Source of the DNA: Nannocystis bainbridge
GTDB lineage: Bacteria; Myxococcota_A; Polyangia; Nannocystales; Nannocystaceae
Direction of reading: 5' to 3'
Assembly (NCBI RefSeq): GCF_028368995.1
Contig: NZ_JAQNDL010000004.1
Coordinates: forward strand, 608,001 to 672,000
Length of the DNA: 64,000 nucleotides
The notes under the pieces were generated by a model. It worked only from the letters and a program-made list of their open reading frames with translations, did not search any database and was not told the DNA's origin. A program made the translations under genes and the position numbers. Below are positions 1,727 to 64,000 of this stretch, one piece after another; the stretch's first letter is position 1; the number at the start of each line of letters is the position of its first letter.

Positions 1727-1824
1727 TGGCCTCAGGGACATGCGCTTTCGAACATGTCTTCATGGACATGCATTTTGGGGCCTGCTCTTTAGAACAGGCG
1801 CTTTGGCGCATGGTCGATCGGCCA
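1727..1824. repeat. Array of seven degenerate 14-bp palindromic units (TGTCC-N4-GGACA family)
   Basis: TGGCCTCAGGGACA/TGCGCTTTCGAACA/TGTCTTCATGGACA/TGCATTTTGGGGCC/TGCTCTTTAGAACA/GGCGCTTTGGCGCA/TGGTCGATCGGCCA at an exact 14-bp period, ending 3 bp from the stop codon at 1828. Confidence 0.8.
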
Positions 1825-1827
1825 GGC

Positions 1828-3105
1828 TCAGGGCGCGGCGGGGTTGAGCAGGATGGTGACGGCGCCGGCGTCGAAGGTGGCGACGGCGAGGTCGAGGGCG
1901 GGGTTCGGGTCGAGCTGGGCGGCGTGGACGCGGACGGCGCCGGAGGGCAGCGGGATGGCCTGGGCGGGCGCGAAGCCGCCGTCGCCGTGGCCGGACCACC
2001 ACAGCAAGATCGGGCTGAGGGCGTCGACGGCGACGATGTCGAGGTGGCCGTCGCCGTCGAGGTCGTCGAGGTCGAGGGCGTGCGGCTTGAAGGGCGGGTC
2101 GATGGCGACCGAGCTGGCGTGGCTGAAGCCGCCGGCGCCGTCACCTGTCGCAAGGGACAGGCGTGCGGGGAATTGCTCGGCGGCGAGGATGTCGAGGTGG
2201 CCGTCCTCGTCGAGGTCGCCGAGGGCGGCGCCCCACGGGCGCAGGTGGGCGACCTGGGCCACGGGCTCGACGAACTGGCCGTCGGGGCGGCCGAGCACGC
2301 GCAGGAAGCCGCGCGGGGCGTCGACCTCGAACAGGAGGGCGTCGGGGACGCCGTCGCCGTCGAGCTGGCCGACGAGGAGACCGCCGGGGGCGAAGTCGGC
2401 GACAGCGCCGAGCACGGTGGTGGTGGTGGTCCAGGCGGCGGCGTCGCTGCCCCGGTGGACAGTGAGGCCGAACTTGTGGGCGCCGCGGCTGAGGGCGACG
2501 ACGTCGTTGCGGCCGTCGGCGTCGAGGTCGGCGACGACGTGGTTGCGCGGCGTGGGCGGGCTGGTCAGCGTCTTGTAGGCGGCGAACGCTGCCACCTGCC
2601 AGCGGAAGATCCGGGCGGCGTCGTCCGGCTGGGCGACCATGACATCGACGCCGGCGTGGCCGTCGAGCTGGCCGATCGCCGGGTAGGCGCTGGCGCCCTG
2701 CAGGGTGGGCGCGATGTCGGTGACGAAGCTGCCGTCGCCGCGGCCGCGCGCGACCCAGCCGGAGATCAGGGCGTCGTCGTCGAGGCCCATGACGAGCAGG
2801 TCGGTGTGGCCGTCGCCGTCGAAGTCGGCGACCTCGAGCGAGTAGGGCTCGATCGCGGGGATGAGGTCGCCGCCGCCGCTCTCGTTCGGGTCGCCGCCGG
2901 TGGACGGATCGGTGGTGGTGGGCTCGGTGGGGGACGGATCGGCGGTGGTGAGGCCGCCGGTGACTTCGCCGCCGGGGCCGCCGCCGCTGACGCCTTCGGT
3001 CGCGCTGCCGTGGCTGTCGCCGTGGCTGTCGCCGTCGGTCTCGCCGAGGGGACGCTCGGTGCAGGCGACGAGCAGCGCCAGCGCGGACGCCAGGTGAGCC
3101 CTCAT
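1828..3105 (-). CDS. FG-GAP/VCBS repeat lipoprotein
   Basis: Lipobox MRAHLASALALLVAC, a T/G/D-rich linker, and repeated DxDGDGxxD motifs (ADFDGDGHTD, DLDADGRND, DLDEDGHLD, DLDGDGHLD). Confidence 0.85.
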   Translation of the reverse strand: MRAHLASALALLVACTERPLGETDGDSHGDSHGSATEGVSGGGPGGEVTGGLTTADPSPTEPTTTDPSTGGDPNESGGGDLIPAIEPYSLEVADFDGDGHTDLLVMGLDDDALISGWVARGRGDGSFVTDIAPTLQGASAYPAIGQLDGHAGVDVMVAQPDDAARIFRWQVAAFAAYKTLTSPPTPRNHVVADLDADGRNDVVALSRGAHKFGLTVHRGSDAAAWTTTTTVLGAVADFAPGGLLVGQLDGDGVPDALLFEVDAPRGFLRVLGRPDGQFVEPVAQVAHLRPWGAALGDLDEDGHLDILAAEQFPARLSLATGDGAGGFSHASSVAIDPPFKPHALDLDDLDGDGHLDIVAVDALSPILLWWSGHGDGGFAPAQAIPLPSGAVRVHAAQLDPNPALDLAVATFDAGAVTILLNPAAP

Positions 3106-3255
3106 GGGCCCACGCTGCCACGGGCACGCGGTCGCGGCAAGCGCTGGGCCCCGGGCCCGGGGGCGTGATCGCGCGGACGCCGCGGGCCGGGCTTGCGCGC
3201 GGCCGGGCGGCGGGTTAGCAGTGGGCGAGGCCGCCCGTCGGCTGCTCGATCGGAC

Positions 3256-4221
3256 ATGAACGAAACGCCAGGTAGAGAGGGCGCGGGGGGCGGCATCCTG
3301 GGGCACGTGGGCGGCACGCCGCTGGTGCCGCTGCGCCGCCTGGGGGCCGGGCTGGCGGCGCCGGTGCTGGTGAAGTGCGAGCACCTGAACCCGGGCGGCA
3401 GCGTGAAGGACCGCATCGCGGTGGCGATCGCGGACGACGCGGAGGCGCGCGGGCGGCTGCGACCGGGGATGACGATCGTCGAGGCGACGGCGGGCAACAC
3501 GGGGGTGGGGCTGGCGTTGGTGGCGGCGGCCCGCGGGTACCGGCTGGTGTGCGTGCTGCCGGAGAAGATGTCGGCCGACAAGCGGGCGGCCCTGGCGACG
3601 CTGGGGGCAGAGGTCATCGTGACGCCGAACGCGGCGCCGTCACACCCGGACAACTTCCGCCGGGTGGCCGAACGGCTGGCGCGCGAGCGCGGGTGGTTCC
3701 TCGCCGATCAGTTCAACAACCCGGCCAACGTCGAGGTCCACGCGCGCACGACGGCGGCGGAGATCCTGGCGCAGACGGGCGGGGTCGTGGGGGCGTTCGT
3801 GGCCGGGGCGGGCACGGGCGGGACGATCACGGGGGTGGGCCGGGTGCTCAAACGGGCATGTCCGAAAGTGCAGGTGGTGCTTGCGGACCCGATCGGCTCG
3901 GGGCTGGCGCAGTGGGTGGAGACGGGCGCGATCGGGCCCGACGGGGCGTACGCGGTCGAGGGCATCGGCGCGAGCGAGCCGCCAGGGAACCTCGATCGGG
4001 CGGTGATCGACGCGGCCGAGCGGGTGAGCGACGCGGAGAGCTTCGCCACGGCGCGGCGGCTGATCGCGGAGGAGGGGCTGCTGGTCGGCGGGTCGGCGGG
4101 CACGAACGTGGCTGCCGCCCTGCGCGTGGCGGCCCGCGGCGGGCTGGCAGGGCCGGTGGTGACGGTGCTGCCCGACGCGTGGGACCGCTACCGCAGCAAG
4201 CCGTGGCTGCAGGGCGGGTGA
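3256..4221 (+). CDS. PLP-dependent cysteine synthase / cystathionine beta-synthase family protein
   Basis: KCEHLNPGGSVKDR (PLP lysine), EATAGNTG, GAGTGGT and EEGLLVGGSAG motifs. Confidence 0.92.
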   Translation: MNETPGREGAGGGILGHVGGTPLVPLRRLGAGLAAPVLVKCEHLNPGGSVKDRIAVAIADDAEARGRLRPGMTIVEATAGNTGVGLALVAAARGYRLVCVLPEKMSADKRAALATLGAEVIVTPNAAPSHPDNFRRVAERLARERGWFLADQFNNPANVEVHARTTAAEILAQTGGVVGAFVAGAGTGGTITGVGRVLKRACPKVQVVLADPIGSGLAQWVETGAIGPDGAYAVEGIGASEPPGNLDRAVIDAAERVSDAESFATARRLIAEEGLLVGGSAGTNVAAALRVAARGGLAGPVVTVLPDAWDRYRSKPWLQGG

Positions 4222-4231
4222 AGCGATAAGA

Positions 4232-4259
4232 TGACCCGGAGGACATGTCCTCGGGGTCA
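4232..4259. repeat. Two 14-bp palindromic units between convergent genes
   Basis: TGACCCGGAGGACA/TGTCCTCGGGGTCA; the final TCA is the stop codon of the minus-strand gene. Confidence 0.75.
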
Positions 4260-4940
4260 GTCGTCGTAGACGAACGGGATGTCGAGCCCGCCGATGCGCT
4301 CGCCGGTGGTGGGGTCGAAGAGCTCGGCGACGAGGTCGACGTGGCGCACGTCGGCGAGCTCCTCGAAGTAGAGGAAGCCGGTGATCCGCCCGCCGGGGCT
4401 GAGCACGCCCTCGGGCAAGGCGCGCTGAAGCAGCTCGCTGTCGGGCAGCGGGGCGTGCTGGCAGGCGGTGTAACAGTCGCCGTAGTAGTCGGGGCGGAAC
4501 GGGAAGCTGCCGCCCCACACGGACAGCGCGGGGTACCACGGCGAGAGGTAGGGGGCGAGGCCGAAGCCCATCGGCGGATAGACGAGGTCGACCGGCGCAT
4601 AGGCGACGCCGGGCACGATGACGGGCGGCAAGGCGGCGAAGCGGACCCCGGCGCGGGTGACGAGGGCGAAGTGCTCGTAGCGCAGCTCGACCGGCCGCCG
4701 ACCGCGGTTGGTGATGGTGACGAGCAGCGGGGTGACGAGCTCGCCGAGCTCGGCCGGGTAGCCGCGCCAGGCGTCGGCGATGGCGATGAGCTCGACGCCG
4801 GCGTCCTCGTCGAAGGCCGAACCGGCGAGGCCGGGGACGCGCCGCGACTCGGGGGCAGGCTCGAGGGTGCCGGCGCAGGCGAGCAGCGCGGCGCCAGCGA
4901 AGGACAGTCGACGGACGATCGCAGCGAGGTGTGGCGGCAT
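4257..4940 (-). CDS. Hypothetical lipoprotein
   Basis: Signal-like AGAALLAC, strong GC3 bias, and a Tyr/Pro-rich segment followed by LPEGVLSPGGRITGFLYF. Confidence 0.7.
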   Translation of the reverse strand: MPPHLAAIVRRLSFAGAALLACAGTLEPAPESRRVPGLAGSAFDEDAGVELIAIADAWRGYPAELGELVTPLLVTITNRGRRPVELRYEHFALVTRAGVRFAALPPVIVPGVAYAPVDLVYPPMGFGLAPYLSPWYPALSVWGGSFPFRPDYYGDCYTACQHAPLPDSELLQRALPEGVLSPGGRITGFLYFEELADVRHVDLVAELFDPTTGERIGGLDIPFVYDD

Positions 4941-5212
4941 GAGAGTCGTGCTCGCCGCAATCGTTGAGCCGATCGTCGCCGCGGCCACGCGGCGCGCGAG
5001 GCCCCGGCGGACGCAGGCGGCACGACTTCGCAAGCAGCGAGGGCAAGGGCCGCGGCGCGAGCGCGAGGGACGAATTCGGCACGGGCCGCGTCCGCGCGGC
5101 GGTGGAGGTGCGGGGCCGGCGATCGATCGCCGCGGGGCGCGGGCGCCCTCCGGACCGCTTGCTCGCCCCCGCGCCGGTGCTATCAGGCCAGGTTGCGAAA
5201 GGTCAGGCTCCG

Positions 5213-6354: not shown

Positions 6355-6422
6355 CAGCTGTGGCGGAAGATCGCCCGCCGAGGACGGGCGACCGCTGGCA
6401 CGCCTCGTCGAGGCGCGCGTGA

Positions 6423-6495
6423 TGTCCTCGAGGACAGGTAGTGTCGCGTGCGGGGAGCCTCACCCGCGGGCCAGGCTCGCATGTGCTCGAGGCCA
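6423..6495. repeat. 14-bp palindromic units between convergent genes
   Basis: Perfect palindrome TGTCCTCGAGGACA at 6423-6436; TGTGCTCGAGGCCA at 6482-6495. Confidence 0.7.
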
Positions 6496-7468: not shown

Positions 7469-7471
7469 GAC

Positions 7472-9031: not shown

Positions 9032-9033
9032 GG

Positions 9034-12695: not shown

Positions 12696-12930
12696 TGTCC
12701 CGGAAGACATGTCGCCGCGGACGGGCGTGAGCGAATGTCCCGGAGGCGCGGCGTCGTCGGGTGGGAGCGGCTGGCCGAGAGAGTCTGTCCCGGAGGACAT
12801 GTAGAATCGGGCAGGTCTTATCGTTGTCCTGGAGGACATGTCGCCCGGGGCGACATGGAATGTCCCGGAGGGCATGTCGCGGGGGACATGCCTTGAAGAA
12901 CATGTCCTCGGAGGCATGCTCCGAGGGGCA
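12696..12930. repeat. Large cluster (about 12 units) of the 14-bp palindromic element
   Basis: Units at 12696, 12710, 12736, 12786, 12800 and 12825, a 17-bp variant at 12839, then five in register at 12861, 12875, 12889, 12903 and 12917, ending 3 bp from the stop at 12934. Confidence 0.88.
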
Positions 12931-14832: not shown

Positions 14833-15237
14833 GTCGCGGCGCGTTCTATCACAACGGCCGGGGCAGGCCGCGGCGATAATTCCCGGGCGGCGCAGGAACG
14901 GTGATTCTGTCCACGACGACAGGCGCTCGCAGGTTGCACGGGCGCAAGACGAACCCGGAGCCAGGCCGAGAGGTTGCAGGTGCACGCCGGGGCAGCGAGG
15001 CGGCGGTCCGCCTGGGCAGAGCCGGGCGGGTCAAGGCGAACGCGGGGCCAGGCGAGGCCGGCCGAGGGGCCGCGCGCGTGAAGCCGGCAGGCCACGGTGA
15101 ACGAGGCGTGGCGGCGGCGCGAGCGAAGGGTCGGGGGCGCGCGGGCGGTCGCGCTGGCAGGAACGGCGTCGGGTCGCAGCAATCGTCTGCGCGGGCGCGC
15201 GCGGGTGGTCAGCGCCGCTTCCGCAGCCGGCGGTGGG

Positions 15238-15265
15238 TGGTCGTGGGGACATGTCCGAACGGTCA
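15238..15265. repeat. Two 14-bp palindromic units in a divergent intergenic region
   Basis: TGGTCGTGGGGACA/TGTCCGAACGGTCA; another unit, TGTCCACGACGACA, lies at 14908-14921. Confidence 0.65.
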
Positions 15266-16277: not shown

Positions 16278-16347
16278 TGTTCAATGGGGCATGTTACATT
16301 GGACATGTCCATTGGAGCATGTTCGATAGAACATGTCCTTTGGGGAA
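16278..16347. repeat. AT-rich array of five 14-bp units between convergent genes
   Basis: TGTTCAATGGGGCA/TGTTACATTGGACA/TGTCCATTGGAGCA/TGTTCGATAGAACA/TGTCCTTTGGGGAA at an exact 14-bp period. Confidence 0.85.
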
Positions 16348-17875: not shown

Positions 17876-18012
17876 GGGCGCGCCGGAGATCGTAACATGT
17901 CGCGAGGGACATGTCCTCGGGGACATGCGATCAGGGGCGCGCCGGAGATCGGTACATGTCGCGAGGGACATGTCGCGAGGGACATGTCCTCGGGGTCATG
18001 CGCGCAGGGGCG
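17876..18012. repeat. Duplicated block containing arrays of the 14-bp element
   Basis: GGGCGCGCCGGAGATCG..ACATGTCGCGAGGGACATGTC occurs twice, 59 bp apart. Units at 17898, 17912, 17926 and at 17957, 17971, 17985, 17999. Confidence 0.85.
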
Positions 18013-18018
18013 GTCGGC

Positions 18019-18804
18019 TCAGGGGGTGCTGACCTCGACGTCGAGGCAGAAGTGGGCCGAGCGCGAGTCGTACCAGTCGCGCAGGTTGGTCAGCGGGGTG
18101 TCGCAGTGGTCGCCGGGATCGTCGATGGCGACCAGGCCGTCGCCGGGGGCGTCGCCCATGTGATCGGCGTGGAGGACGAGGGTCGAGGTCGAGCCGCCGC
18201 CGGTGATCCGCAGGCAGAAGTGCTGGGTGTCCAAAAGGACAGGTGGGTCGAGCTCGAAGTCGCGGTAGTCCATGCCGCCGTCGATGGTGCCGAGCTCGCG
18301 GGTGTCGAGCACGGCGAGCACGGGGGCGTGGTTGCCGGGGTCGTAGGGGAGGACGTCGAGGACGGCCGACGGCTCGCCGACGGCGAAGCGGACCTCGAAG
18401 CCTAACCGGGTGAGCTGCAGCGGCGGCGGGGCGGGGGCGGTGAAGCACTCGACGGCCTCGATCTTGGCCGAGACGGGGTCGCCGCCGCTCATGCAGAAGG
18501 GGCCGTCGATGCAGCGCGCGGGATCGTAGGGGCGCAGGGTGGTGGGCTCGAGCGGACCGGTGGTGGGCTCGGCGGTGGTGCTCGAGCTGGTGGTCGTCGA
18601 GGTGGTGGAAGAGACGGCGGCGGTGGTGGTGGAGTCGTCGCTGGTCGCCGCGGGGCCGGTGGTCGGCAGGCCGGTGGTGGTGGTGCCGCCGGTGGTGGTG
18701 GTCGTCGCGGCGCCGCCCTCGGTGGTCGCGCCGTCGTAGCTCGGGTTCGGGCGCAGGCACCCGCCGAGGACGAGGACGAACAGGTGGGCGAACCGAGGCC
18801 TCAC
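18019..18804 (-). CDS. Hypothetical lipoprotein with Thr-rich linker
   Basis: Lipobox LFVLVLGGC followed by LRPNPSYD, a Thr/Ser tract and a Cys-containing globular domain. Confidence 0.75.
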   Translation of the reverse strand: MRPRFAHLFVLVLGGCLRPNPSYDGATTEGGAATTTTTGGTTTTGLPTTGPAATSDDSTTTAAVSSTTSTTTSSSTTAEPTTGPLEPTTLRPYDPARCIDGPFCMSGGDPVSAKIEAVECFTAPAPPPLQLTRLGFEVRFAVGEPSAVLDVLPYDPGNHAPVLAVLDTRELGTIDGGMDYRDFELDPPVLLDTQHFCLRITGGGSTSTLVLHADHMGDAPGDGLVAIDDPGDHCDTPLTNLRDWYDSRSAHFCLDVEVSTP

Positions 18805-20473: not shown

Positions 20474-21262
20474 TCAGCCGGGCGGGCCGTTGTCGGGATC
20501 TGGCCCCGGGGACAGGTCGACGATGGTGGCGCCCCATCCGCCGCCGCGGTGGCCGCCGAGGCGGTAGGCGACGACGCGCGGGTGACGATCGAGGATCGCG
20601 TGCACGGTCCGTCGCAGGGCGCCGATGCCCTTGCCGTGGACGATGCGGACCTCGGTGATGCCGCGCGCGCGGCAGACTTCGAGGTACTCGAGCACGAGGC
20701 GCTTGACGTCCTTGGGGCTGAAGTTGTGGAGGTCGAGCTCGCCGTCAACGGGCAGCTCGGCGGCGCGGTCGGAGCCGGCGAGGGCGCCGAAGAAGCCGGC
20801 GCGCCCGGCCCACGGAGCCCACGGGAGCGCGGTGACGGGAGCGGGCTGATAGGCGGCGGGCCGCGGGAGGGCGCAGCGATGGACGGTGCGGGCGGCCCGG
20901 GCGAACGGGTTCCACGGGCGCTGGCCCTGGGCGGGGCCGGGCTGCCAGCGCTCGCCGACGCGGAGCTCGAGGGTGAAGCGGCCGGGGCGGCCGGGCCAGC
21001 GTTCGGCGACGATCCGCAGGTCGCCGAACAGGGCGGCGCCGATCAGGTCGAGGGCGAGGGCGGCCTGATCGTCGCTGTCGTCGTCGTCGGCGAGCGCGAA
21101 CGAAGCTGTCCATCCGGACAGGTCGACGCGCAGGCGATCGCCGTCGCGGTGGACGCCGAGCTCGAGGTCGCCGAGGCGGACGACGCCGGGGGGCGAGGGC
21201 GCGAGGCCGCAGGCGGCGAGCATGGCGTCGAGTGCGTGCGCGAAGGCCTCGCCGGGGGTCAT
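20474..21262 (-). CDS. Smr domain protein with an uncharacterised N-terminal domain
   Basis: The C-terminal ELDLH...VRIVHGKGIGALR...GGWGATIVDL is an Smr signature. The start MTPGEAF is inferred because the longer ORF overlaps real genes. Confidence 0.85.
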   Translation of the reverse strand: MTPGEAFAHALDAMLAACGLAPSPPGVVRLGDLELGVHRDGDRLRVDLSGWTASFALADDDDSDDQAALALDLIGAALFGDLRIVAERWPGRPGRFTLELRVGERWQPGPAQGQRPWNPFARAARTVHRCALPRPAAYQPAPVTALPWAPWAGRAGFFGALAGSDRAAELPVDGELDLHNFSPKDVKRLVLEYLEVCRARGITEVRIVHGKGIGALRRTVHAILDRHPRVVAYRLGGHRGGGWGATIVDLSPGPDPDNGPPG

Positions 21263-23819: not shown

Positions 23820-23889
23820 TGTCCGTGAGGACATGTGCGAAGGGACCTGTGCGTCGGGACAGGGCCGATCGCGCATGTCCTCGCGGACA
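23820..23889. repeat. Array of five 14-bp units between convergent genes
   Basis: TGTCCGTGAGGACA/TGTGCGAAGGGACC/TGTGCGTCGGGACA/GGGCCGATCGCGCA/TGTCCTCGCGGACA. Confidence 0.85.
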
Positions 23890-31799: not shown

Positions 31800-31861
31800 G
31801 GACATGTCCTCGAGGGGCATGCTCGAAGGGGCATGTCCTCGCGGGCATGTCCTCGCGGGCA
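31791..31861. repeat. Array of five 14/15-bp units filling a convergent intergenic gap
   Basis: TTGCCTTAGGGACA (includes the stop)/TGTCCTCGAGGGGCA/TGCTCGAAGGGGCA/TGTCCTCGCGGGCA/TGTCCTCGCGGGCA. Confidence 0.85.
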
Positions 31862-35762: not shown

Positions 35763-38700
35763 GCGACCTGGCCGACGAGCTGCGGGCCGGCGGGGAGGTC
35801 GACTCGCAGGGGCGCTTCACGCTCGACCGGGCGCAGGCGCGGGCGAAGATGCAGAAGTTTCAGCTCGACGACGCGCGCCGCTATGTGCTCGAGCTGGTGC
35901 AGGCGGCGGTGATCCGCGGGGCGACGAGGATCGGGTTCGACATCGACGCCGACGACATGCGGATGCGCTTCGACGGGCGGCCGTTCTCGCGGGCGGAGCT
36001 CGAGGAGCTGTGGGGCTCGATCTTCGCCGACGGCGACGAGGCCGACCTGCGCGGGCTCCGGCAGCTGGCGCTCGGCCTCAACGCGGCGCTGGGGCTGGTC
36101 CCGAAGCAGATCGTGGTGCGCAGCGGGACGACGCGGCTGCGGCTGGCGCCGGGCAAGGAGGACGCGCTGACGGAGGCCGAACCGGCGATCGCGGAGACGA
36201 CGATCCACGTCGAGAAGCGGCTGCGCCTCGGGCTGATGGTGGCGTTCTTCCACGACCTGCGCGGGAGCCTGGGCGAGGAGGTGTACCTGCGCGAGCGCTG
36301 CGTCTACGCGCGGGTGTCGATCACGCTCGACGGCCAGCCGATCGCGTCCGGGCCGCGGGTCCCGCACGCGATGCTGCGGCTCGAGCTGGCGGAGCCGGGG
36401 CTGACGGGGATGCTGGCGCTGCTGCCGGGCGAGGCGCCGGCGGAGGTGCGGCTGGTGAAGGACGGGGTGTGGATCGATACGCACCCGCTCGAGGGCGTGG
36501 GGCCGGGGATCCTGGCGATCGTCGAGGCGGAGGCGCTGCGCAAGGATGTGTCGATGGCGAAGATCGTCGCCGACGCGGGGTTCGAGCAGGTGGTGGGGCT
36601 GGTGCGCGCGGTTCGCTGGACGCTGCTGGCGCGCGCGGCCGCGGCGGTCCTGGCGGGGGAGATCCGGCCGGAGTCGGTGATGCCGCGGATCCGCGAGGAG
36701 GCGCTGCAGTTCATGAAGCTCCGCGACCTCCGCAAGCGGGCGGAGGTGGAGCCGCTGGCCCGGGCGATCACGTGGATGGACGCGAGGACATGTTCTACGG
36801 GACATGTCGAAACGGTCACGTTGGCGGGGCTGACCGAGGCGGTGACGGCCCACCCGGAGAGCGAGGGCCGCGTGCTGCGCTTCGCGACGAGGACGTACGC
36901 GGCGCTCAAGGCGGAGGGGCGGCCGATCCCGCGGCTGTCCCGCAAGGACGCGGACCGGCTGGCGCGGCTGCTGGGGTGCGAGGTGATCGCGGTCGACGAG
37001 GCGCTGGCGGCGGCGCAGCTGCGCGAGCAGGCGCGCGAGGCGTGGCTGCAACGGCGGTCGCCGGCGCGGCTGCGAGAGGGCGGTTATGTGGCCCGCGCGA
37101 CGCTGACGCCAGGGTCAGCGAGCCGCGGCGAGGTGGGGATCGCGGCGGAGGCGGTGACGGGCGGGGCGACGGGGGGGCGGCTGTCGCTGATCACCGAGGG
37201 CTGTCTGCTGCGCCGGGTCGAGGTCGAGTGGGGTGTGGCAGGGCTCGATCTGGTGATCGAGGCTCCGTTCACGCCGAGCGAGCTGTTCGACGACGCGGTC
37301 CGCGATGCGACGCTGGTCGAGGCGGTGCTGGCGGGGCTGGGGGCGTTGGCGGAGCCGCTGGCGGAGCTGGCCGAAAGGACAGGCGAGGCGAGGGGCGCGG
37401 GCGAGGTGCGCGGGCTGGTGAAGGGGTGGCTGCTGCTGGCGCTCGACGCGGAGACGCGAGCGGCGCTGTGGCAGCGGCTCGGGGTGCCGGAGGCGCTGTG
37501 GCCGGAGGCAGAGGCGGTGGCGAGGTGGTTGCCGTCGGCGGATCCGCTGCGCGCGAGCGAGGGGCGGCTGGCGTCGCTGATGCAGGTGCCGCTGTTCGAG
37601 GACTTCGACGGGGCGCGGCGATCGATCGAGGAGCTGGCGCGCCGCTTGGAGCGAGTGGGGCGGATCGAGGCGATCGAGCGCTCGGAGGCGCCGGAGCCGT
37701 CACTCGGCCGCGAGATCGCGTGGCTGGGCCGCGGCGACCGCAAGATCCTGGCAGGGCTGCTCGGCGGGGAGGCGATGCTGCAGTCGTGGGCGCCGACGCT
37801 GGCGGTGCGCCGACGCGAGCGCCAATTCTGGGCCCAGGAGGCGCGCTCGCAGGCGGAGTCGATGCGCGCGGCGGAGGAGGCGGCGCGGGTGGTGGGGCTC
37901 GATCCGGGCTTGTGGTGCCTGGCGTGGCGCGAGGAGGAATTGGAATTGGTGCTGACGCTGCACCCGCCGGCGACGCCGTTCCGGCTGGCGAGGGAGGTCG
38001 AGCCGGCGACGGTGGAGCTGCGGTTCGAGGGCCGCCCGTTGACGACGCGCACGCTGGCGGCGGGCTTCGGACCGATCACGGCGGTGGCGACGACGAGGTC
38101 GTTGCGCCCGAACGCGAGCTGGGACGAGGTGGCGGACGAGGCGGTGGTGGCGACGGTGACGGAGGGGCTGCGTCGGGCCGCGTGGGCGCTGGTGGCGGGG
38201 GTGATCGAGCGCTGGATGAGCGGCGCGGGGGTCGGCGATTCGACGTGGACATGGCTGCGTGAGCAGCTGCTGGCCCGCCTGACCGCTTCGACGCGAGCGG
38301 AGGTGATGGCAGCGGCGCCGCGGGTGCTGGAGGTGCCGCTGTTCGCGACGCTGGGCCCGCGGGTGCTGAGCCTGGCGGAGGTGGAGGCGGTGGTGGCGGC
38401 GGAGGGACAGATCGGCTGGGTGCCGCGGACGATGCCGGGGGCGTCGCTGCCGGAGCCGCCGATCGTGCGCGAGGATCCGCCGACGATCGCGGCGCTGCGG
38501 CGATGGTTGGGCGAGGCGCGCGTGGTCGACGGCGGGGAGCGGGTGCGGTCGCAACGACTGGCGCGACGCCTGGTGGATCTGCCGGCGATGACTTCGCTGA
38601 AGCTGGATCCGTCGCGGGTGTGGGCGACGACGTCGCTGGCGAACGAGAAGGGCGAGGTCGAGGGCGAGGTGGGGCTGCGCCGCGAGGACGGGGCACCGAC

Positions 38701-47798: not shown

Positions 47799-49064
47799 TC
47801 ACTCGGCGGCCGGGGCTTCGACCAGCTTGAGGATCTTGCCGGCGCTGGTGGCCGGCATGGCCTCGCCCAGGCGCAGCTCGCCGGCCTCGATCGGGACCAC
47901 GAAGGCCTGCGGCACGCCGACCCGGCCGCCGCGCGCCTTGACCCACGCGAGCAAGTAGCGCTGCTGGGCGGCGAGGGTGGCCGCGGCGTCCTCGCCGTCG
48001 ATGCAGGTGCGCAGGCGGCCGCCGGGGCCGAGCACGTCGGCGACGTCGCCGAGCGCCCGCTCGACCTTGTCGGTGGTGAAGCGCGGGGCCTCGGTGTCCT
48101 GCAGGTCGAACAGCGCGGCCAGGCCGTCGAGCCCGCGCCCGGGGGCCAGCCGCTCGACGCACAGGGCCGCCAGGGCGGCGAGGCAGGCGTTGTTGCTGCG
48201 CGCGTCGCCGTGGGTCTGCGGCTTGCCGTCGCCGTCGACGAACTCGTGCGACGGCAGGTAGCGCTCGTCGCAGACGGCGCGCGGGAACATGTAGACCCAC
48301 AGCTCGGCCCCGTGGGCGCGCAGCCGCGGCAGCGACTGCTGCAGGAAGTGGAGCTCGCGCCGGCACAGCGGGCAGGTCGGATCGACGAACAACATCACCG
48401 CGAGGCGCGGGTCGTCGACGGTGGCGGCGAGCGTGACCGGCGGCGGATCGGGCGGCGGCGGCGGGCAGGTCACCGAGCGCGCGGCGAGTTGATAGGCGAG
48501 GGCGAGGCCGCCGGTGGTCAGCGCCCACACCAGCGCGGCCCGCACGGCGCCGACCTTGGCATGTCCCTCGGGACAGGTCGGCGCGGCGCCGCGGACCAGC
48601 AGCGCGCCGACGAGGGCGACGGTGTAGGTGGCGTAGAGGCCGACGCACAGCGGGCACATGTGCGCGAAGCTCGTGAACGCGTGCACGCCGAGCGCCAGCG
48701 ACACCGCGAACCCGAACACGCCGAGGCCGAGCAGCCCGCGCGCGGCGACCTCGGCCAGCGGCCCGCGCCGGCGCAGCACCGCGACCGCTAGCCACATGGT
48801 CGTGAAGACATGTCCGATCGACCAGATGGCGAGCGGCAGCCCGAGCACCTGCGACCAGCCGCTGGCCAGCGCCTCGGCGCAGGCCGGGCCGTCGTCGCCG
48901 CCGGGGCAGCCGCTGGCGTCGCACAGGTGGTCGGCGCCGAACTTGAGCCGCACCAGCCAGGCGCTGACGAACAGGCCGGCGAGCCCGGAGGCGAGCGTCA
49001 ACCACGCGCCGGCGCGGACCCGCGGCGCGAGCTCGGACGGGGTGGCGATCGTCGGCTCCGTCAC
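47799..49064 (-). CDS. VKOR (vitamin K epoxide reductase) family protein fused to a DsbA-like thioredoxin domain
   Basis: GTGA overlap with the kinase stop; loop cysteines and C.EALASGWSQVLGLPLA; TM CPLC; then FVDPTCPLC and GVPQAFV. Confidence 0.85.
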   Translation of the reverse strand: MTEPTIATPSELAPRVRAGAWLTLASGLAGLFVSAWLVRLKFGADHLCDASGCPGGDDGPACAEALASGWSQVLGLPLAIWSIGHVFTTMWLAVAVLRRRGPLAEVAARGLLGLGVFGFAVSLALGVHAFTSFAHMCPLCVGLYATYTVALVGALLVRGAAPTCPEGHAKVGAVRAALVWALTTGGLALAYQLAARSVTCPPPPPDPPPVTLAATVDDPRLAVMLFVDPTCPLCRRELHFLQQSLPRLRAHGAELWVYMFPRAVCDERYLPSHEFVDGDGKPQTHGDARSNNACLAALAALCVERLAPGRGLDGLAALFDLQDTEAPRFTTDKVERALGDVADVLGPGGRLRTCIDGEDAAATLAAQQRYLLAWVKARGGRVGVPQAFVVPIEAGELRLGEAMPATSAGKILKLVEAPAAE

Positions 49065-50979: not shown

Positions 50980-51021
50980 TGGTCGATCGGACATGTCCGA
51001 AAGACCATGCGCGTCGAAGCC
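50980..51021. repeat. Two to three 14-bp units in a divergent intergenic region
   Basis: TGGTCGATCGGACA/TGTCCGAAAGACCA/TGCGCGTCGAAGCC. Confidence 0.65.
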
Positions 51022-53167: not shown

Positions 53168-53209
53168 TGCGCGAAAGGACATGTCCGAACGGGCATGTCG
53201 TGAAGGACA
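53168..53209. repeat. Three 14-bp units between convergent genes
   Basis: TGCGCGAAAGGACA/TGTCCGAACGGGCA/TGTCGTGAAGGACA, 11 bp after the uvsE stop. Confidence 0.85.
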
Positions 53210-56478: not shown

Positions 56479-56528
56479 TGTCCCCGGGGACATGTCGACA
56501 TGGCGGGAAGTGCATGTCCCGAGGGACA
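56479..56528. repeat. Cluster of 14-bp units
   Basis: TGTCCCCGGGGACA (perfect)/TGTCGACA (8-bp short unit)/TGGCGGGAAGTGCA/TGTCCCGAGGGACA. Confidence 0.8.
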
Positions 56529-58935: not shown

Positions 58936-58980
58936 TGTCTCGATGGACATGTCCCTTCGGACATTGATAGGACATGCCCG
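58936..58980. repeat. Cluster of 14-bp units between convergent genes
   Basis: TGTCTCGATGGACA/TGTCCCTTCGGACA, then TTGATAGGACA/TGCCCG. Confidence 0.8.
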
Positions 58981-61801: not shown

Positions 61802-61957
61802 GCTTAAAGTCTCCCTCGTTCGGTCTTATCACAGCCCGCCGCAGGCCCCCGGGCGCGCCGGCGTGCGCTGACCCGGAGGCGTGACACCGCTGTGATTGCC
61901 GTGCGCTTCCGCGCGAGCCGGGCCGCGAGCCGCGAGCCGTGAATTGCGAGTCGGCGA

Positions 61958-63034
61958 TCAGGGGGCAGGCCGGCGCTGCCAGGGGGTCGTGACCGCGGCC
62001 AGCTCGGCGAACGAGATCCCCCAGGCTTTTGTGGCGTCGAGGGCGGCCGCGCGGCGCTGCAGGTCCTCGGGGGCCAGGGGCTCGTCCTGCGCCAATGCGA
62101 GGACGATCCATTCGTTGCTGCCGGGGCGGCGGACCACGTGGACCTGGGGGAACACCTCGGCGATGGCGTTCACGTGGACGTCGTAGCCGGTCAAATGGTG
62201 GATGTTGAAGGCCGCGGCGCCGCCGGGGCTGAGGCGCTGCTTGACGCGGCGGAGAAACCCGAGGCCGCGCAATTCCTCGGGCACGCCGGCGTTGTCGGTG
62301 CCAGGGGCGCCGGGGTCGAGGAAGGCGTCGAGCCAGATGATGTCGTAGGTGGGGCCCTCGCCGGCGATGAAGCGCACGGCGTCGTCGGTGAAGATGCCGA
62401 GGCGCGGGCCCGGGACCACGCCGAACCACTCGGCGGCCAGGCGCACGACCTCCGGGTCGATCTCGACGGCGTCGATGTGGGCCGCGGGCAGGCGCGAGTG
62501 GAACCAGCGGACCAGGGTGCCGCCGCCGAGGCCGACGACGAGCAGGCGCCGCGGAGCGTCGACGACCATGAAGGGCGCGGCCATGGCCTCGGCGTAGGCG
62601 TGGGCGGGCACGTCGGGGTCGGTGAGGTCGATGATGGTCTGCACCCACTCGTCGCCGCGCTTGCGCACGAACCCGAGGGTGCGCTTGGTGCCCTGCTGTT
62701 GCACGCGGATCTTCGAGAACGGCGAGGTCGCCTCGGCGAGCAGCTTGCGCCCGCGGACGCGCTCGGGCGCGACCGGGGCCGGCAAGGCGACGGCGGCGGG
62801 GGCGGCCACGGTCGGGGGGCTGGCGACCGGCGCCTCCTCGGCGGCGGGGCGATTGCATGCACCTGTCCCCGGGGACAGGGAGAGGACGGCGAGCAGGGAC
62901 GCGAGCGGGCCGCGGTGGACCGGCCGAGATGGACTTTGGTTGTCTGTCCCTCGGGACAGGTCGTGCCGATCACGAACGACGCGCGCGCCGGGGCGACGCG
63001 CGGGCGGAGAGGAGGGGTCGTCGAGGTCGCGCAC
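61958..63034 (-). CDS. Spermidine synthase-like SAM-dependent methyltransferase, probably exported
   Basis: LVVGLGGG, DAVEIDPEV, DAVRFI and YDIIWLDAF. The true start is uncertain and probably downstream of 63034. Confidence 0.8.
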   Translation of the reverse strand: MRDLDDPSSPPARRPGARVVRDRHDLSRGTDNQSPSRPVHRGPLASLLAVLSLSPGTGACNRPAAEEAPVASPPTVAAPAAVALPAPVAPERVRGRKLLAEATSPFSKIRVQQQGTKRTLGFVRKRGDEWVQTIIDLTDPDVPAHAYAEAMAAPFMVVDAPRRLLVVGLGGGTLVRWFHSRLPAAHIDAVEIDPEVVRLAAEWFGVVPGPRLGIFTDDAVRFIAGEGPTYDIIWLDAFLDPGAPGTDNAGVPEELRGLGFLRRVKQRLSPGGAAAFNIHHLTGYDVHVNAIAEVFPQVHVVRRPGSNEWIVLALAQDEPLAPEDLQRRAAALDATKAWGISFAELAAVTTPWQRRPAP

Positions 63035-63073
63035 GCGCGGATGGTAGCATCCGCGCGGGCCGGAGCGTCCGCT

Positions 63074-64000
63074 TCAGACGCGCAGCTCGGCGCTCGGGCG
63101 CGGCACGGCGAGGTCGTCGAGCAAGGCGCGGGCGCACGGGAGCACGACCGAGCGCATGCACTGGGCGGCCAGGGCGATGCGCTCGGCGGCGGGGAGGCGG
63201 CCGTGGCGGCGCAGGAGGGCCGGTTCGAGGCGGTCGGGCGGAGGCGCGGCGATCTGGACGGTGAGGGCCTCGGCGACGGCGCGGCGCAGGCCGGGGCCGC
63301 CGCGCGACAGGGCCCACTGGACGGTGCGCCAGGCCAGCGCGGCGTGGCGCCCCTCGTCGGCGGCGATCCGGCGCAGGGTGGCGGCGAGGGCCGGATCGTC
63401 ACATGTCCTCGCGGCCAGGTCGAGCTCGGCCGCGGCGAGGGTCTCGCCGACGCAGCCCTCGCGCACGACGGCGGCGACGAGGGCTGCCAGATCGCCGGGA
63501 CCTTCGAGGGCGCCGGCCACGGCCAGCGGCCCGGGGCCGAGCGGGGCGCCGGCGTAAGCACCGGCGATGGCGAAGGCGAGGCGAGCGTGCAGGACCTCGT
63601 CGAGCTGGGCGGCGCAGGCCTCGTGGACCAGGGCGGGCGGGGCGGCGTGGGCGAGCAGCTGCAGGCTGAAGCGCGCGAACGAGGCGACCGAGGCGTGTTC
63701 GGCGAGGGCGTCGGCGGTCCACAGCGCCGCGAGCTCGGCGCGAGCGGCCGCGTCGAGGCCGGCGACGAAGGCGGGGGCGGGGCCGCCGGCGTCGGCGTGC
63801 CAGTCGCGGCGATCGATCGCCGCGGCGGTGCGAGCTGTCCCTTCGACCAGGAAGGGGCGGCCGTCGGTGCAGTTCCAGCTGTACTCGATCACGTGGCAGC
63901 ACTGGCCCTCGATGGTGAACGGGCCGCACGCGAGCTTGAAGCCGAAGTCGGGGCACACTTCGGGGAGCGAGCCGAGGCAGTCGGGCGCGCACGCGTCACA
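63074..64000 (-). CDS. Ferritin-like domain protein with Cys-rich N-terminus (5' end outside the window)
   Basis: GRPF, EHASVASFARF, DEVLHA, EGCVGET and IAADEGRHA diiron-type ExxH motifs; the frame stays open to the window edge. Confidence 0.82.
   Translation of the reverse strand, partial: CDACAPDCLGSLPEVCPDFGFKLACGPFTIEGQCCHVIEYSWNCTDGRPFLVEGTARTAAAIDRRDWHADAGGPAPAFVAGLDAAARAELAALWTADALAEHASVASFARFSLQLLAHAAPPALVHEACAAQLDEVLHARLAFAIAGAYAGAPLGPGPLAVAGALEGPGDLAALVAAVVREGCVGETLAAAELDLAARTCDDPALAATLRRIAADEGRHAALAWRTVQWALSRGGPGLRRAVAEALTVQIAAPPPDRLEPALLRRHGRLPAAERIALAAQCMRSVVLPCARALLDDLAVPRPSAELRV

What the first reader, a model, noticed from the sequence alone, without database searches (positions are those of the whole stretch)
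1727..63417. Window-wide 14-bp palindromic element (TGTCC-N4-GGACA) in phased head-to-tail arrays: candidate undescribed chromosome-wide DNA signal
Seen in sequence: roughly 25-30 loci in 64 kb, counted by eye. Arrays lie at 1727-1824 (7 units), 12696-12930, 16278-16347, 17898-18012, 23820-23889, 31791-31861, 53168-53209, 56479-56528 and 58936-58980. Singles or pairs lie at 3243, 4232, 6423, 14908, 15238, 50980, 62864 and 62945. Unit interiors differ a lot, yet the TG...CA ends and the 14-bp register hold, giving GACATGTC junctions. This does not look like simple slippage of one sequence, and there are no spacers, TIR/TSD structure or transposase. It does not match the parS, matS, SlmA/Noc sites, Chi or REP consensus sequences I know. 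Inference: it is a binding site for an abundant dimeric protein that binds cooperatively. A 14-bp step is about 1.33 helical turns, so three units (42 bp) make about four turns and successive dimers would spiral round the DNA at about 120 degrees. That suggests a nucleoid-organising, roadblock or partition-type filament rather than an ordinary regulon, since neighbouring genes share no function.
Basis: partly seen in the sequence, partly recalled or inferred. Interest (0 to 1): 0.9.

Follow-up and report, generated by a model that had tools for sequence, protein, structure and literature searches.

The report
Genome-wide 14-bp palindrome arrays in Nannocystis
This myxobacterial genome and its close relatives carry thousands of copies of a short two-fold-symmetric DNA word, often stacked head-to-tail just after genes and also written into genes through codon choice, which points to an undescribed DNA signal read by a still unknown paired protein.

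Summary
TGTCC-N4-GGACA occurs 14 times in the window (0.01 expected) and 1987 times in the 11-Mb genome, against 3-13 for five composition-matched dyads. Units abut in strict 14-bp register.

The organism is a Nannocystis. The word is abundant in three of the 17 genera sampled in its family.

Units cluster 5-35 bp after stop codons, above all between convergent genes. They are also 38-fold enriched inside confident coding sequence over synonymous-codon shuffles.

The half-sites vary independently, with no base-pair covariation. The transcribed strand shows no loop preference. G000 has no RAYT transposase.

At orthologous arrays in six species the TG..CA ends and the register are kept, while unit interiors are randomised.

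Best reading (0.45): a lineage-specific iterated interrupted palindrome, read on double-stranded DNA by an unidentified dimeric protein, with arrays marking gene ends. Its closest analogues are cyanobacterial HIP1 and REP/BIME elements, and it is a member of neither. I did not identify the binder or the function.

The parts
1727..1824 (.). 7 phased 14-bp units (mismatches 1,3,1,5,3,5,3). The run ends 4 bp before the stop of the minus-strand gene 1828-3105.
4232..4259 (.). 2 abutting units (1 mismatch each) in the convergent gap between 3307-4221(+) and 4257-4940(-).
6423..6436 (.). Single exact unit in a convergent gap.
12696..12723 (.). 2 abutting units (1 and 2 mismatches).
12786..12838 (.). 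Two exact units (12786-12799 and 12825-12838), not in one register.
12861..12930 (.). 5-unit phased array directly after the stop (12934) of the Castor/Pollux-type channel gene. The orthologous array, with the same register and number of units, is present in five other Nannocystis species.
16278..16347 (.). 5 phased units (2 mismatches each) in the convergent gap after the PLD-like gene. Phased arrays are also present after the orthologous stop in L002 and L003.
17898..17925 (.). 2 abutting units (1 and 0 mismatches).
17957..17998 (.). 3 abutting units, the first two identical (a recent 14-bp duplication).
18228..18241 (.). Exact unit inside the called gene 18019-18804(-), which has no Pfam match.
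21107..21120 (.). Exact unit in the N-terminal part of the called Smr-domain gene 20474-21268(-). It may be 5' UTR if the true start lies further downstream.
23820..23889 (.). 5 phased units (0,2,1,4,0 mismatches) in a convergent gap.
31791..31861 (.). One unit at 31791 plus two identical abutting units at 31834-31861, in the gap between the end of the 30048-31799(+) gene and the end of the 31867-32403(-) gene.
36777..36818 (.). 3 phased units (2,1,2 mismatches) inside the large ORF 35741-40315(+).
48562..48575 (.). Exact unit inside the VKOR-domain gene 47799-49064(-). Three relatives carry a one-mismatch unit at the aligned position with no indel; the fourth aligns poorly.
53168..53209 (.). 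3 abutting units in the convergent gap after the UvdE gene.
56479..56528 (.). Two exact units (56479 and 56515) after the stop of gene 56545-57390(-). A unit sits 14-16 bp after the orthologous stop in 5 of 5 species compared.
58936..58963 (.). 2 abutting units (1 and 0 mismatches) in a convergent gap.
62864..62958 (.). Two exact single units (62864 and 62945) in the gap between two minus-strand genes.
3243..3256 (.). Weak single unit (2 mismatches) in a divergent gap. Chance cannot be excluded at this mismatch level.
14908..15265 (.). Weak units at 14908 (1 mismatch) and 15238-15265 (2 and 1 mismatches) in a divergent gap.
50980..51007 (.). 2 abutting weak units (2 mismatches each) in a divergent gap.

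Best explanation
The element is a lineage-specific, highly iterated interrupted palindrome with full consensus (C/A)TGTCC-N4-GGACA(G/T).

Shown:
- It is a DNA-level signal of the whole chromosome of Nannocystis and two sister genera.
- The unit is the N4-centred dyad.
- Units abut exactly, giving 14-bp phased arrays that sit a few bases after stop codons.
- The ends and the register are kept between species while the 4-5 central bases drift freely.
- The word is also written into coding sequence by codon choice.

Inferred:
- The dyad is read on double-stranded DNA by an abundant dimeric sequence-specific protein, one monomer per (C/A)TGTCC half-site with an AT-richer centre.
- Arrays arise by 14-bp slippage between the TG(T)/(A)CA ends and are then held by selection on the half-sites.
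- Arrays act as multi-dimer landing pads that mark or insulate gene ends, as a roadblock, boundary or nucleoid anchor. Dispersed single sites, including those inside genes, would serve the same protein genome-wide.

The binder and its biochemical role are not identified.
For: Non-randomness. There are 1987 exact units against 3-13 for five matched dyads. Spacing counts are 485/305/232/128/64 at 14/28/42/56/70 bp and 0 at 13 and 15. Runs of CATG in 14-bp phase reach 12.

The dyad is the unit. 493 of 1987 exact units are isolated, against 33 of 956 junction palindromes.

Half-sites are independent:
- In 1986 distinct array units, mutual information for mirrored pairs 3-12, 4-11 and 5-10 is about 0.01 bit. 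Watson-Crick counts observed/expected are 810/790, 1084/1061 and 1048/1075.
- In 493 isolated exact units the flanks are C at -1 (374) and G at +14 (359). C..G is seen 268 times against 272 expected, and A..T 16 against 16.2. There is no pairing constraint.

Not read on RNA. In same-direction gaps, loops oriented by transcription give CGAA 38 against TTCG 32.

Centre. Positions 7 and 8 are 62-63% A+T in a 71.5% G+C genome.

Selection at orthologous loci:
- A 5-unit array after one stop codon in six species has pairwise identity by unit position of 1.0.93.57.83.60.33.32.32.25.41.72.69.87.93.
- Of 19 intergenic exact units aligned gap-free to G010, 8 are exact and 16 are within one mismatch there. 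Their N4 identity is 0.51, against 0.87 for aligned intergenic background.
- A unit follows the same stop codon in 5 of 5 species.

DNA-level force inside genes. There are 546 exact units in the interiors of 5091 confident genes, against 14.5 +/- 4.4 in 8 synonymous-codon shuffles. One-mismatch units number 1200 against 283. The 546 units are spread over 403 genes.

Gene-end placement. Units with <=1 mismatch occur at 4.73 per kb in convergent gaps (52% of 1415 gaps), 1.77 in tandem gaps, 0.61 in divergent gaps and about 0.28 in coding sequence. Their distance from the stop codon peaks at 5-35 bp and is flat relative to the next start. The same ranking holds in a 200-kb stretch of a sister-genus genome, G071: 2.93, 0.61, 0.60 and 0.24 per kb.

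Clade restriction. Exact counts are g1 333-2090, g4 67-696 and g2 87-169, against 0-11 in 13 other genera and 0-10 for controls.

Birth of arrays by slippage. Identical interiors occur in 4.5% of adjacent units against 1.07% of random pairs.
Against: No binder was found:
- PadR, whose published operator ATGT-N8-ACAT fits the array reading, gives no match in G000.
- The 10 GerE/LuxR-type genes show nothing special.

Cooperativity, filament formation and any effect on transcription are untested.

Symmetric double variants are about 2-fold above independence (TGCCC..GGGCA 146 against 60 expected plus 21 background). This leaves room for some pairing constraint.

In same-direction gaps, G:U-compatible variants slightly exceed A:C ones on the sense strand (908 against 770). 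I attribute this to the genome's GC skew of about 0.08, but that is inference.

The stop-proximal peak also fits an RNA 3'-end role.

Coding units are not conserved above background between G000 and G010: 10 of 16 exact, against 0.46-0.56 expected. The sample is small and the species are close.

In a site-selected sample of a g2 genome, 34 of 41 units lie in coding sequence with no gene-end bias. The gene-end function may therefore be secondary.

The three rRNA operons carry no arrays at their ends, and the one whose end I read uses a canonical hairpin plus T-tract.

Gene positions come from my own rough GC3-based caller, which places starts poorly.
Confidence: 0.45

Rival explanations
1. HIP1-like or uptake-type signal. 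A protein of the DNA uptake, recombination, repair or methylation machinery recognises the dyad. The word accumulates wherever it is tolerated (3' gaps, flexible protein segments) by molecular drive or by selection for exchange among kin, not because of anything it does at gene ends.
For: The word is present in coding and non-coding DNA, with 38-fold codon-level enrichment. Coding sites favour S/P/A-rich contexts, enriched 1.2-1.45x, and aromatic residues are depleted. It is clade-specific. It is poor in compositionally atypical regions (Spearman 0.51 with G+C; the poorest 100-kb bins have 68.6-69.7% G+C). In a g2 genome most sampled units are in coding sequence. For HIP1, over-representation and conservation are reported in the abstract of PMC5861425. 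A possible uptake role and two cognate methylases are reported in the abstract of PMC13756078.
Against: Known uptake sequences are oriented single words. Here the half-site alone is not enriched. Strict 14-bp abutting arrays, and an array length kept at 5 units in six species, are not predicted by uptake or repair drive. No methyltransferase or competence link was tested. Viral contigs show only 8 single hits among the collection, which says little either way.
Confidence: 0.2
2. REP-like extragenic palindrome acting as a hairpin in RNA or single-stranded DNA, for example as an mRNA 3'-end stabiliser, terminator helper or translation-coupled regulator. It would be spread by a mobile-element enzyme or by slippage.
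For: Location just after stop codons and in convergent gaps matches what the REP survey PMC3733652 reports for REPs (abstract and passages). Copy number varies between genera and species. Presence at orthologous gene ends turns over. Symmetric double variants show a modest 2-fold excess. One window array scores as a terminator-like hairpin (12926-12906). The same survey mentions Thauera REPs with only 5-bp stems found as tandem repeats.
Against: G000 has no Y1/RAYT transposase. There is no GTAG or CGTC tag. Array units show no stem covariation, and isolated units show none at the flanking sixth pair. The stable UUCG loop is not preferred on the transcribed strand. No T-tract follows the units. 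The 546 units deep inside genes arise by codon choice; the one I aligned to orthologues shows no indel, so it is not an in-frame insertion. No conserved inter-unit RNA helix is seen in the six-species array (by inspection).
Confidence: 0.15
3. Preferred sites of a type IIA topoisomerase (gyrase or topo IV). The two-fold site has a 4-bp centre matching the 4-bp cleavage stagger, and is placed where positive supercoils build up between converging genes, as proposed for E. coli BIME-2.
For: The dyad has a 4-bp centre and shows convergent-gap enrichment. Passages of PMC6379681 report gyrase cleavage sites enriched downstream of highly transcribed operons and in BIME-2.
Against: The published gyrase motif is long (130 bp) and degenerate with a 10.75-bp periodicity, not a sharp 5-N4-5 word. 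The rRNA operons, the most transcribed units, have no arrays at their ends. Clade restriction of the word would require a changed specificity in a universal enzyme.
Confidence: 0.05
4. Operator of an ordinary transcription factor regulon, for example a LuxR-type regulator. The CviR consensus CTGNCC-N4-GGNCAG has the same architecture.
For: The isolated-unit consensus CTGTCC-N4-GGACAG fits that published consensus. I recalled the consensus and confirmed only that the string occurs in 3 papers, from the search listing. In a g2 genome (G011), three perfect 20-mers lie in AT-rich 5' regions of secreted-protein genes.
Against: There are about 6200 near-exact sites. Density is lowest in divergent gaps and flat relative to gene starts. 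Neighbouring genes are functionally unrelated. Hundreds of sites lie inside genes.
Confidence: 0.03
5. Compositional artefact or pure replication slippage with no recognition by any factor.
For: Some adjacent units are identical.
Against: Enrichment is 150- to 600-fold over matched dyads and 38-fold over codon-preserving shuffles. About 95% of neighbouring units differ inside while keeping their ends. The half-sites are conserved across six species.
Confidence: 0.01

Closest known systems
HIP1 (Highly Iterated Palindrome 1, GCGATCGC) of cyanobacteria
   Same: Both are short palindromes hyper-abundant in one clade. Both occur inside and between genes, are over-represented beyond codon-aware expectation, are conserved at orthologous positions, and have unresolved function (nucleoid structure or uptake signal). 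HIP1 facts come from the abstracts of PMC5861425 and PMC13756078. Here.
   Different: HIP1 is an uninterrupted 8-mer with known cognate methylases and no reported abutting arrays. This word is a 14-16-bp interrupted dyad with a free 4-bp centre. It stacks in 14-bp phased arrays, is about 10-fold denser just after stop codons, and has a different sequence and a different phylum.
REP / BIME / REPIN elements with RAYT transposases
   Same: Both are species- or clade-specific palindromic repeats in hundreds to thousands of copies. Both lie mostly downstream of genes and between convergent or same-direction genes, sometimes clustered (passages of PMC3733652; here).
   Different: REPs are 20-40 bp with GTAG or CGTC tags and are usually linked to a Y1 transposase. 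Intragenic copies are insertions. Here the arms are 5-6 bp, there is no tag and no RAYT in G000. There is no stem covariation, units abut without linkers, and intragenic copies are made by codon choice.
DNA uptake sequences (Neisseria DUS, Haemophilus USS)
   Same: Both reach thousands of copies, are clade-specific, occur in genes and terminator regions, and are depleted in atypical DNA. The DUS/USS properties are recalled, not checked in a call. Here.
   Different: DUS and USS are oriented single words that form inverted pairs only secondarily. Here the half-site alone is not enriched and the dyad is the unit. Tandem phased arrays are not a DUS/USS feature.
Tandem abutting operator boxes of ribbon-helix-helix repressors (MetJ met-boxes, omega/ParG iterons)
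   Same: In both, palindromic or short boxes are repeated head-to-tail without spacers in runs of 2-8, with degenerate members. This architecture binds successive dimers cooperatively. The comparator is recalled, not checked in a call.
   Different: Those arrays occur at a handful of promoters or centromeres with 7-8-bp periods. Here the period is 14 bp, there are about 800 arrays with at least 2 full units, and they sit at gene 3' ends across the chromosome.
CdbA, a sequence-specific nucleoid-associated protein of Myxococcus xanthus
   Same: It sets a myxobacterial precedent for an abundant protein with more than 500 GC-rich sites, in both intergenic regions and genes, that is not a classical regulator (passages of PMC7156744).
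   Different: The CdbA motif is a direct repeat separated by 4 bp, not a dyad. It has 569 ChIP peaks rather than thousands of sequence-defined sites, and no phased arrays are reported.

Membership tests
REP/REPIN-RAYT elements | Extragenic location, mainly downstream of genes and between convergent or same-direction genes | tested here: met
   4.73, 1.77 and 0.61 units per kb in convergent, tandem and divergent gaps. Distance from the stop codon peaks at 5-35 bp.
REP/REPIN-RAYT elements | Imperfect palindrome of 20-40 bp whose stem is maintained | tested here: not met
   The unit is 14-16 bp with 5-6-bp arms. Mirrored positions have mutual information of about 0.01 bit. Flank pairs match independence exactly. 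Symmetric doubles show only a 2-fold excess.
REP/REPIN-RAYT elements | Terminal GTAG or CGTC tag | tested here: not met
   Unit ends are (C/A)TG...CA(G/T). The tag definition comes from passages of PMC3733652.
REP/REPIN-RAYT elements | Cognate Y1 (IS200/IS605-like) RAYT transposase in the genome | tested here: not met
   PF01797 gave 0 matches in G000 (90.5% complete), while the control search rang in 6 of 14 reference genomes.
HIP-type highly iterated palindromes | Short palindrome many-fold over-represented in the genomes of one clade | tested here: met
   1987 exact units against 3-13 for control dyads. Three genera of 17 are enriched.
HIP-type highly iterated palindromes | Over-represented inside ORFs beyond codon and protein constraints | tested here: met
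   546 against 14.5 +/- 4.4 in synonymous shuffles, and against 2.5 in codon-order shuffles.
HIP-type highly iterated palindromes | Sites conserved between orthologous positions more than background | tested here: inconclusive
   Intergenic: half-sites are kept while the N4 drifts. Coding: 10 of 16 exact in G010 against 0.46-0.56 background. The sample is too small.
HIP-type highly iterated palindromes | The sequence GCGATCGC with cognate GATC/CGATCG methylases | tested here: not met
   The sequence is different and interrupted. Methylases were not examined.
DNA uptake sequences (DUS/USS) | An oriented single word that is itself over-represented | tested here: not met
   TGTCC occurs 12351 times, of which about 4200 have a partner half within one mismatch. 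The remainder is below the roughly 10250 expected from base composition (the expectation is my arithmetic).
DNA uptake sequences (DUS/USS) | Preferential uptake of DNA bearing the word | not testable with these tools
   This needs transformation or uptake assays.
Intrinsic (Rho-independent) terminators | G+C-rich hairpin followed by a T-tract | tested here: not met
   There is no T enrichment after units. Only 1 of 7 terminator-like hits in window 1-20000 overlaps an array. The rRNA operon end I read has a canonical terminator and no array.
Transcription-factor operator of a LuxR-type (CviR-like) or PadR-type regulon | Dyad architecture matching the family's operator | tested here: met
   CTGTCC-N4-GGACAG in isolated units fits CTGNCC-N4-GGNCAG. 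ATGTCC-N4-GGACAT in arrays fits ATGT-N8-ACAT. Both consensus sequences were recalled. Their presence in print was checked by search listings only.
Transcription-factor operator of a LuxR-type (CviR-like) or PadR-type regulon | Sites concentrated in promoters of a limited gene set, with a cognate regulator present | tested here: not met
   Density is lowest in divergent gaps and flat relative to starts. No PadR domain was found in G000. None of the 10 GerE genes stands out.

The most novel reading that the evidence does not exclude
Nannocystis and its sister genera have evolved a dedicated, abundant dimeric DNA-binding protein. It polymerises in 14-bp steps on arrays placed immediately after stop codons and also decorates thousands of single sites inside genes. 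This would be a previously unknown bacterial system that marks gene ends on the chromosome, acting as protein roadblock terminators, boundary elements or nucleoid anchors. The 'punctuation' is encoded in DNA and kept by selection across species.
Probability: 0.3. Interest if true: 0.85.

Novelty: new variant of a known kind. Interest (0 to 1): 0.7.

Why it matters
Genome-wide iterated words such as HIP1, REP, DUS/USS and Chi are among the few sequence features that reveal machinery acting on the whole chromosome. The function of HIP1 has stayed open for about three decades.

This is an independent case in another phylum with an unusually informative anatomy:
- a sharp 16-bp dyad with a free centre;
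- strict 14-bp stacking;
- a fixed position after stop codons;
- conservation of array length and register across species;
- strong codon-level enrichment.

These features make the binder directly fishable by DNA-affinity capture with defined mutant controls. They also make the competing functions separable by experiment: gene-end roadblock or boundary, nucleoid anchor, uptake or self signal, or methylation target.

The phyletic contrast, three motif-rich genera against at least 13 motif-poor genera in one family, offers a clean set for correlating the motif with protein families.

Practically, the arrays matter for annotating gene ends and for genetic engineering of Nannocystis, a producer of natural products.

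Tried and rejected
Rfam. Nothing in the window reached gathering thresholds.

Earlier scan notes.

RNA evidence. No RNA holder was listed by the look-up of sequencing runs. Only small-share metagenome contigs appeared. Whether arrays are transcribed, or end transcripts, is untested.

RAYT/REP route. PF01797 gave no match in G000.

IS-end route. A self-megablast of the genome found a few 1.3-2.2-kb multicopy elements. None of the 7 ends inspected begins with the motif.

PadR route. I recalled the PadR operator ATGT-N8-ACAT; 4 papers hold the terms (listing only). PF03551 gave no match in G000, so I dropped it.

LuxR/GerE route. I recalled the CviR consensus; 3 papers hold the string (listing only). 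G000 has 11 GerE matches in 10 genes, mostly response regulators. None had a notable motif context. I did not run phyletic profiles for them.

CdbA. The published motif is a direct repeat, not this dyad (passages).

Gyrase. The published motif is long and degenerate (passages), and the rRNA operon ends lack arrays.

ori/ter pattern. There is no density trend across the one GC-skew switch seen (C3 at about 1.5 Mb) or along the contigs.

Dense clusters as a 'centromere' next to a binder gene. The densest 3-kb windows are mostly low-complexity coding repeats (V-P-x-D type) inside large genes.

Viral contigs. There were 8 single hits only.

Coding-site conservation between G000 and G010 was inconclusive, with 16 sites. 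The 'exact sites in span' figures printed by that script are meaningless, because the span was stretched by stray alignments. I do not use them.

Literature. Five searches turned up no description of this element:
- Nannocystis + palindromic + repeat
- TGTCC/GGACA + myxobacteria
- REP + convergent + species-specific + myxobacteria
- a term search inside the REP survey PMC3733652
- Nannocystaceae/Enhygromyxa/Plesiocystis + palindrom/repetitive element
REP or HIP surveys with genome lists in supplements (PMC3733652, PMC4390886, PMC5861425) could mention myxobacteria without my seeing it.

Limits of my gene map. Genes were called with a home-made GC3 frame score (7877 genes, 81-84% coding). Stops are exact but starts are approximate. 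'Divergent gap' and 'coding' counts carry that error. For the coding test I used only genes with score above 40 and trimmed 210 nt from the 5' end and 63 nt from the 3' end.

Full report

Yes. In the window the exact pattern TGTCC-N4-GGACA occurs 14 times against 0.01 expected. At up to 2 mismatches it occurs 74 times against 26 +/- 5.

Four of the 'arrays' (12696-12930, 17898-18012, 31791-31861, 56479-56528) are really several short sub-arrays in different registers. Tandem Repeats Finder independently reports period-14 arrays at six places.

The window lies in an 11.05-Mb, 71.5% G+C genome of five contigs. Genome-wide there are 1987 exact and 4258 one-mismatch units. Five dyads of identical composition give 3-13 and 161-359.

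Units with at most one mismatch are spaced at 14, 28, 42, 56 and 70 bp in 485, 305, 232, 128 and 64 cases, and never at 13 or 15 bp. CATG pairs 14 bp apart number 3736, against 72 at 13 bp and 262 at 15 bp. Phased CATG runs reach 12.

**2. What organism, and how widely is the word spread?**

A channel protein encoded next to one array is 85-93% identical to proteins in records titled Nannocystis (five species), so the genome is a Nannocystis.

- The strict 20-mer ACATGTCC-N4-GGACATGT occurs 142 times in G000 and 6-69 times in 9 of 10 other genomes of the genus. It occurs 3 times in one genome of a second genus and 0 times in the other 29 genomes of the family and class that were searched.
- The 14-mer was counted in 61 genomes of the family. 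Counts are 333-2090 in the genus (8 of 8 genomes), 67-696 in genus g4 (7 of 7) and 87-169 in g2 (5 of 5). They are 5-20 in g32 and 0-11 in 13 other genera, with control counts of 0-10.
- Three CATG in 14-bp phase occur 1005-1670 times in the five large Nannocystis genomes and 20-27 times in three small, incomplete ones. They occur 2-107 times in g4, 0-8 in g2, and 0-3 elsewhere apart from one genome with 17. Controls give 0-2.

Single units are therefore shared by three genera. Large-scale stacking is mainly a Nannocystis trait.

**3. Anatomy of the unit**

The unit is the N4-centred dyad. 493 of 1987 exact units have no recognisable neighbour half on either side, whereas only 33 of 956 GGACATGTCC junction palindromes stand alone.

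The half-site by itself is not enriched. TGTCC occurs 12351 times, about 4200 of them with a partner half, and the rest is below composition expectation (my arithmetic).

Isolated units extend to CTGTCC-N4-GGACAG: C at -1 in 374 of 493 and G at +14 in 359 of 493. Inside arrays the neighbour supplies A and T (164 of 169). The consensus is therefore (C/A)TGTCC-N4-GGACA(G/T).

The centre is free but AT-richer, at 62-63% A+T at positions 7 and 8.

**4. Duplex DNA or hairpin?**

Evidence for duplex DNA:
- In 1986 distinct array units, mirrored positions carry about 0.01 bit of mutual information, and Watson-Crick pairs occur as often as independence predicts.
- In isolated units the flanking pair shows C..G 268 against 272 expected, and A..T 16 against 16.2.
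- Oriented by the upstream gene in same-direction gaps, the stable UUCG loop is not preferred (TTCG 32, CGAA 38).

Evidence that points the other way:
- G:U-compatible variants exceed A:C variants by 908 to 770. That ratio of 1.18 is about what the genome's GC skew of roughly 0.08 would give. This attribution is inference.
- Symmetric double variants are about twice as frequent as independence predicts, so a weak pairing or symmetry preference cannot be excluded.

On balance the word behaves like two independently constrained half-sites on duplex DNA.

**5. Where the units sit**

I used a home-made GC3 gene caller (7877 genes; starts are approximate).

Units with at most one mismatch occur at:
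- 4.73 per kb in convergent gaps, where 52% of 1415 gaps have one;
- 1.77 per kb in same-direction gaps (23% of 4271);
- 0.61 per kb in divergent gaps (16% of 1443);
- about 0.28 per kb in coding sequence.

In same-direction gaps the distance from the upstream stop codon peaks at 5-35 bp. The distance to the next start is flat.

No T-tract follows the units. The rRNA operon end I read has a textbook hairpin plus T-tract, and none of the three rRNA operons carries an array at its end.

Density is similar on all contigs, at a mean of 57 per 100 kb, with no trend around the one GC-skew switch. Density is lower in compositionally atypical bins (Spearman 0.51 with G+C).

A 200-kb stretch of a g4 genome shows the same ranking: 2.93, 0.61, 0.60 and 0.24 per kb. 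In a site-selected sample of a g2 genome, 34 of 41 units are in coding sequence.

**6. The word is written into genes**

In the interiors of 5091 confident genes (6.12 Mb) there are 546 exact units. Eight shuffles that permute synonymous codons within each gene give 14.5 +/- 4.4, and codon-order shuffles give 2.5. One-mismatch units number 1200 against 283.

The 546 units lie in 403 genes, 328 of which have a single unit. Their contexts are somewhat enriched in S, P and A and depleted in aromatic residues.

The favoured frame encodes V-(P/L)-x-D and requires a rare T-ending codon before it. Some low-complexity repeat proteins carry 14-21 units.

The coding unit at 48562 has no indel relative to its orthologues, and three relatives carry a one-mismatch version. 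This rules out a purely extragenic, insertion-type element and shows a DNA-level force acting on codon choice.

**7. Conservation**

After the stop of the channel gene, six Nannocystis species each have five units in the same register. Pairwise identity by unit position is 1.0.93.57.83.60.33.32.32.25.41.72.69.87.93. The ends are kept and the interior is at saturation.

Arrays also follow the orthologous PLD-gene stop in three species. A unit sits 14-16 bp after the stop of gene 56545-57390 in 5 of 5 species.

Over 426 kb aligned to G010, 19 intergenic exact units could be aligned without gaps. Of these, 8 are exact and 16 are within one mismatch in G010. Their N4 identity is 0.51, against 0.87 for aligned intergenic background.

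There is also turnover. Some gene ends have units in only one or a few species.

For coding units the test is inconclusive: 10 of 16 are conserved against 0.46-0.56 background.

**8. How arrays arise**

Adjacent units have identical interiors in 4.5% of 1670 pairs, against 1.07% of random pairs, with similar values at lags 2-4. Perfect tandem duplicates exist, for example at 17957-17984 and 31834-31861.

A unit followed by TG(T) is flanked by short direct repeats 14 bp apart, so slippage would add exactly one unit. That is inference. Most units have since diverged inside while keeping their ends.

**9. Explanation and rivals**

Best reading (0.45): an unidentified dimeric protein reads the dyad on duplex DNA. 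Arrays after stop codons act as multi-dimer pads that mark or insulate gene ends, and single sites serve the same protein elsewhere.

Rivals:
- HIP1-like or uptake/repair/methylation signal (0.20).
- REP-like hairpin element (0.15).
- Topoisomerase sites (0.05).
- Ordinary regulon operator (0.03).
- Artefact (0.01).

I could not name the binder:
- No PadR domain was found in G000.
- Nothing is distinctive about the 10 GerE genes.
- G000 has no RAYT.
- No IS has matching ends.
- No RNA data were available.

**10. Comparison with known systems and novelty**

The closest analogue for the genome-wide, in-gene behaviour is cyanobacterial HIP1 (abstracts). For the gene-end placement it is REP/BIME (passages). 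For the abutting-box architecture it is the tandem operators of ribbon-helix-helix repressors (recalled).

It fails defining features of each:
- REP: size, tag, RAYT and covariation.
- DUS/USS: an oriented single word.
- Intrinsic terminators: a T-tract.
- Regulon operators: promoter placement.

Five literature searches found no description of it. The limits are that subscription journals and supplements were not visible.

I rate it a new variant of a known kind (clade-specific iterated palindromes), with a 0.3 chance that it marks a categorically new gene-end or chromosome-organising system.

Noticed in passing
G000 contig ends: C1:4515659-4536530, C2:3021502-3033751, C5:707284-720618: Several contig ends carry long (7-17 kb) near-perfect inverted self-duplications that are also shared between contigs C1, C2 and C5. 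They look like long-read assembly fold-back artefacts or unresolved repeats at contig joins.
   Followed up: no
window 40454-43590 (tandem genes 40454-42028 and 42025-43590, minus strand): Two adjacent paralogous genes share a segment of about 1 kb at 93% identity (window 40895-41932 against 42466-43503). Each contains a 96-bp internal tandem repeat of 4.5 copies.
   Followed up: no
G000 C2:2066054-2070511, C5:658301-661411, C2:1216680-1218890: Large proteins with low-complexity acidic, Pro/Ala/Ser-rich repeats in which nearly every repeat carries V-P-x-D-(S/I/M), encoded exactly by the DNA motif (14-21 units per gene). The DNA word appears to shape disordered protein segments.
   Followed up: partly
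G000 C1:2062805-2062900 (end of an rRNA operon): A canonical intrinsic terminator (GC-rich hairpin followed by a T/A run) ends the rRNA operon. Classical terminators therefore exist in this genome alongside the arrays.
   Followed up: partly
relatives G050, G075, G041, G070, G064, G058, G079 (genus g32) and G022 (g13), one locus each, e.g. G041:C14:236297-236328: An AT-rich 32-bp stretch with three CATG in 14-bp phase (CATGTCAA..TATACATGA......TTCATG) is conserved at a single locus per genome in genera that lack the iterated word. It may be a conserved operator or RNA element, and might be related to the ancestry of the motif.
   Followed up: no
G000 whole genome: The six-frame search found no PadR-family domain (PF03551), and only 11 GerE (LuxR-type HTH) matches in 10 genes. 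This is unusually few for an 11-Mb myxobacterial genome.
   Followed up: no
G000 C1:1.1-1.3 Mb, C5:0.4-0.5 Mb, C2:1.8-1.9 Mb: These 100-kb bins have lower G+C (68.6-69.7%), near-zero GC skew in the two C1 bins, IS-like repeats in and beside the C1 stretch, and 4-6-fold fewer motif units. They are probably recently acquired DNA.
   Followed up: partly
L020:7970, L021:7989, L022:7984 (genome G011, genus g2, about 60% G+C in these loci): In this sister genus the perfect 20-mers are single sites with AT-rich centres. Two of the three sit in AT-rich regions at the 5' ends of secreted or lipoprotein genes; no downstream gene was found for the third. This looks more like ordinary operators and hints at how the word may have started.
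   Followed up: partly
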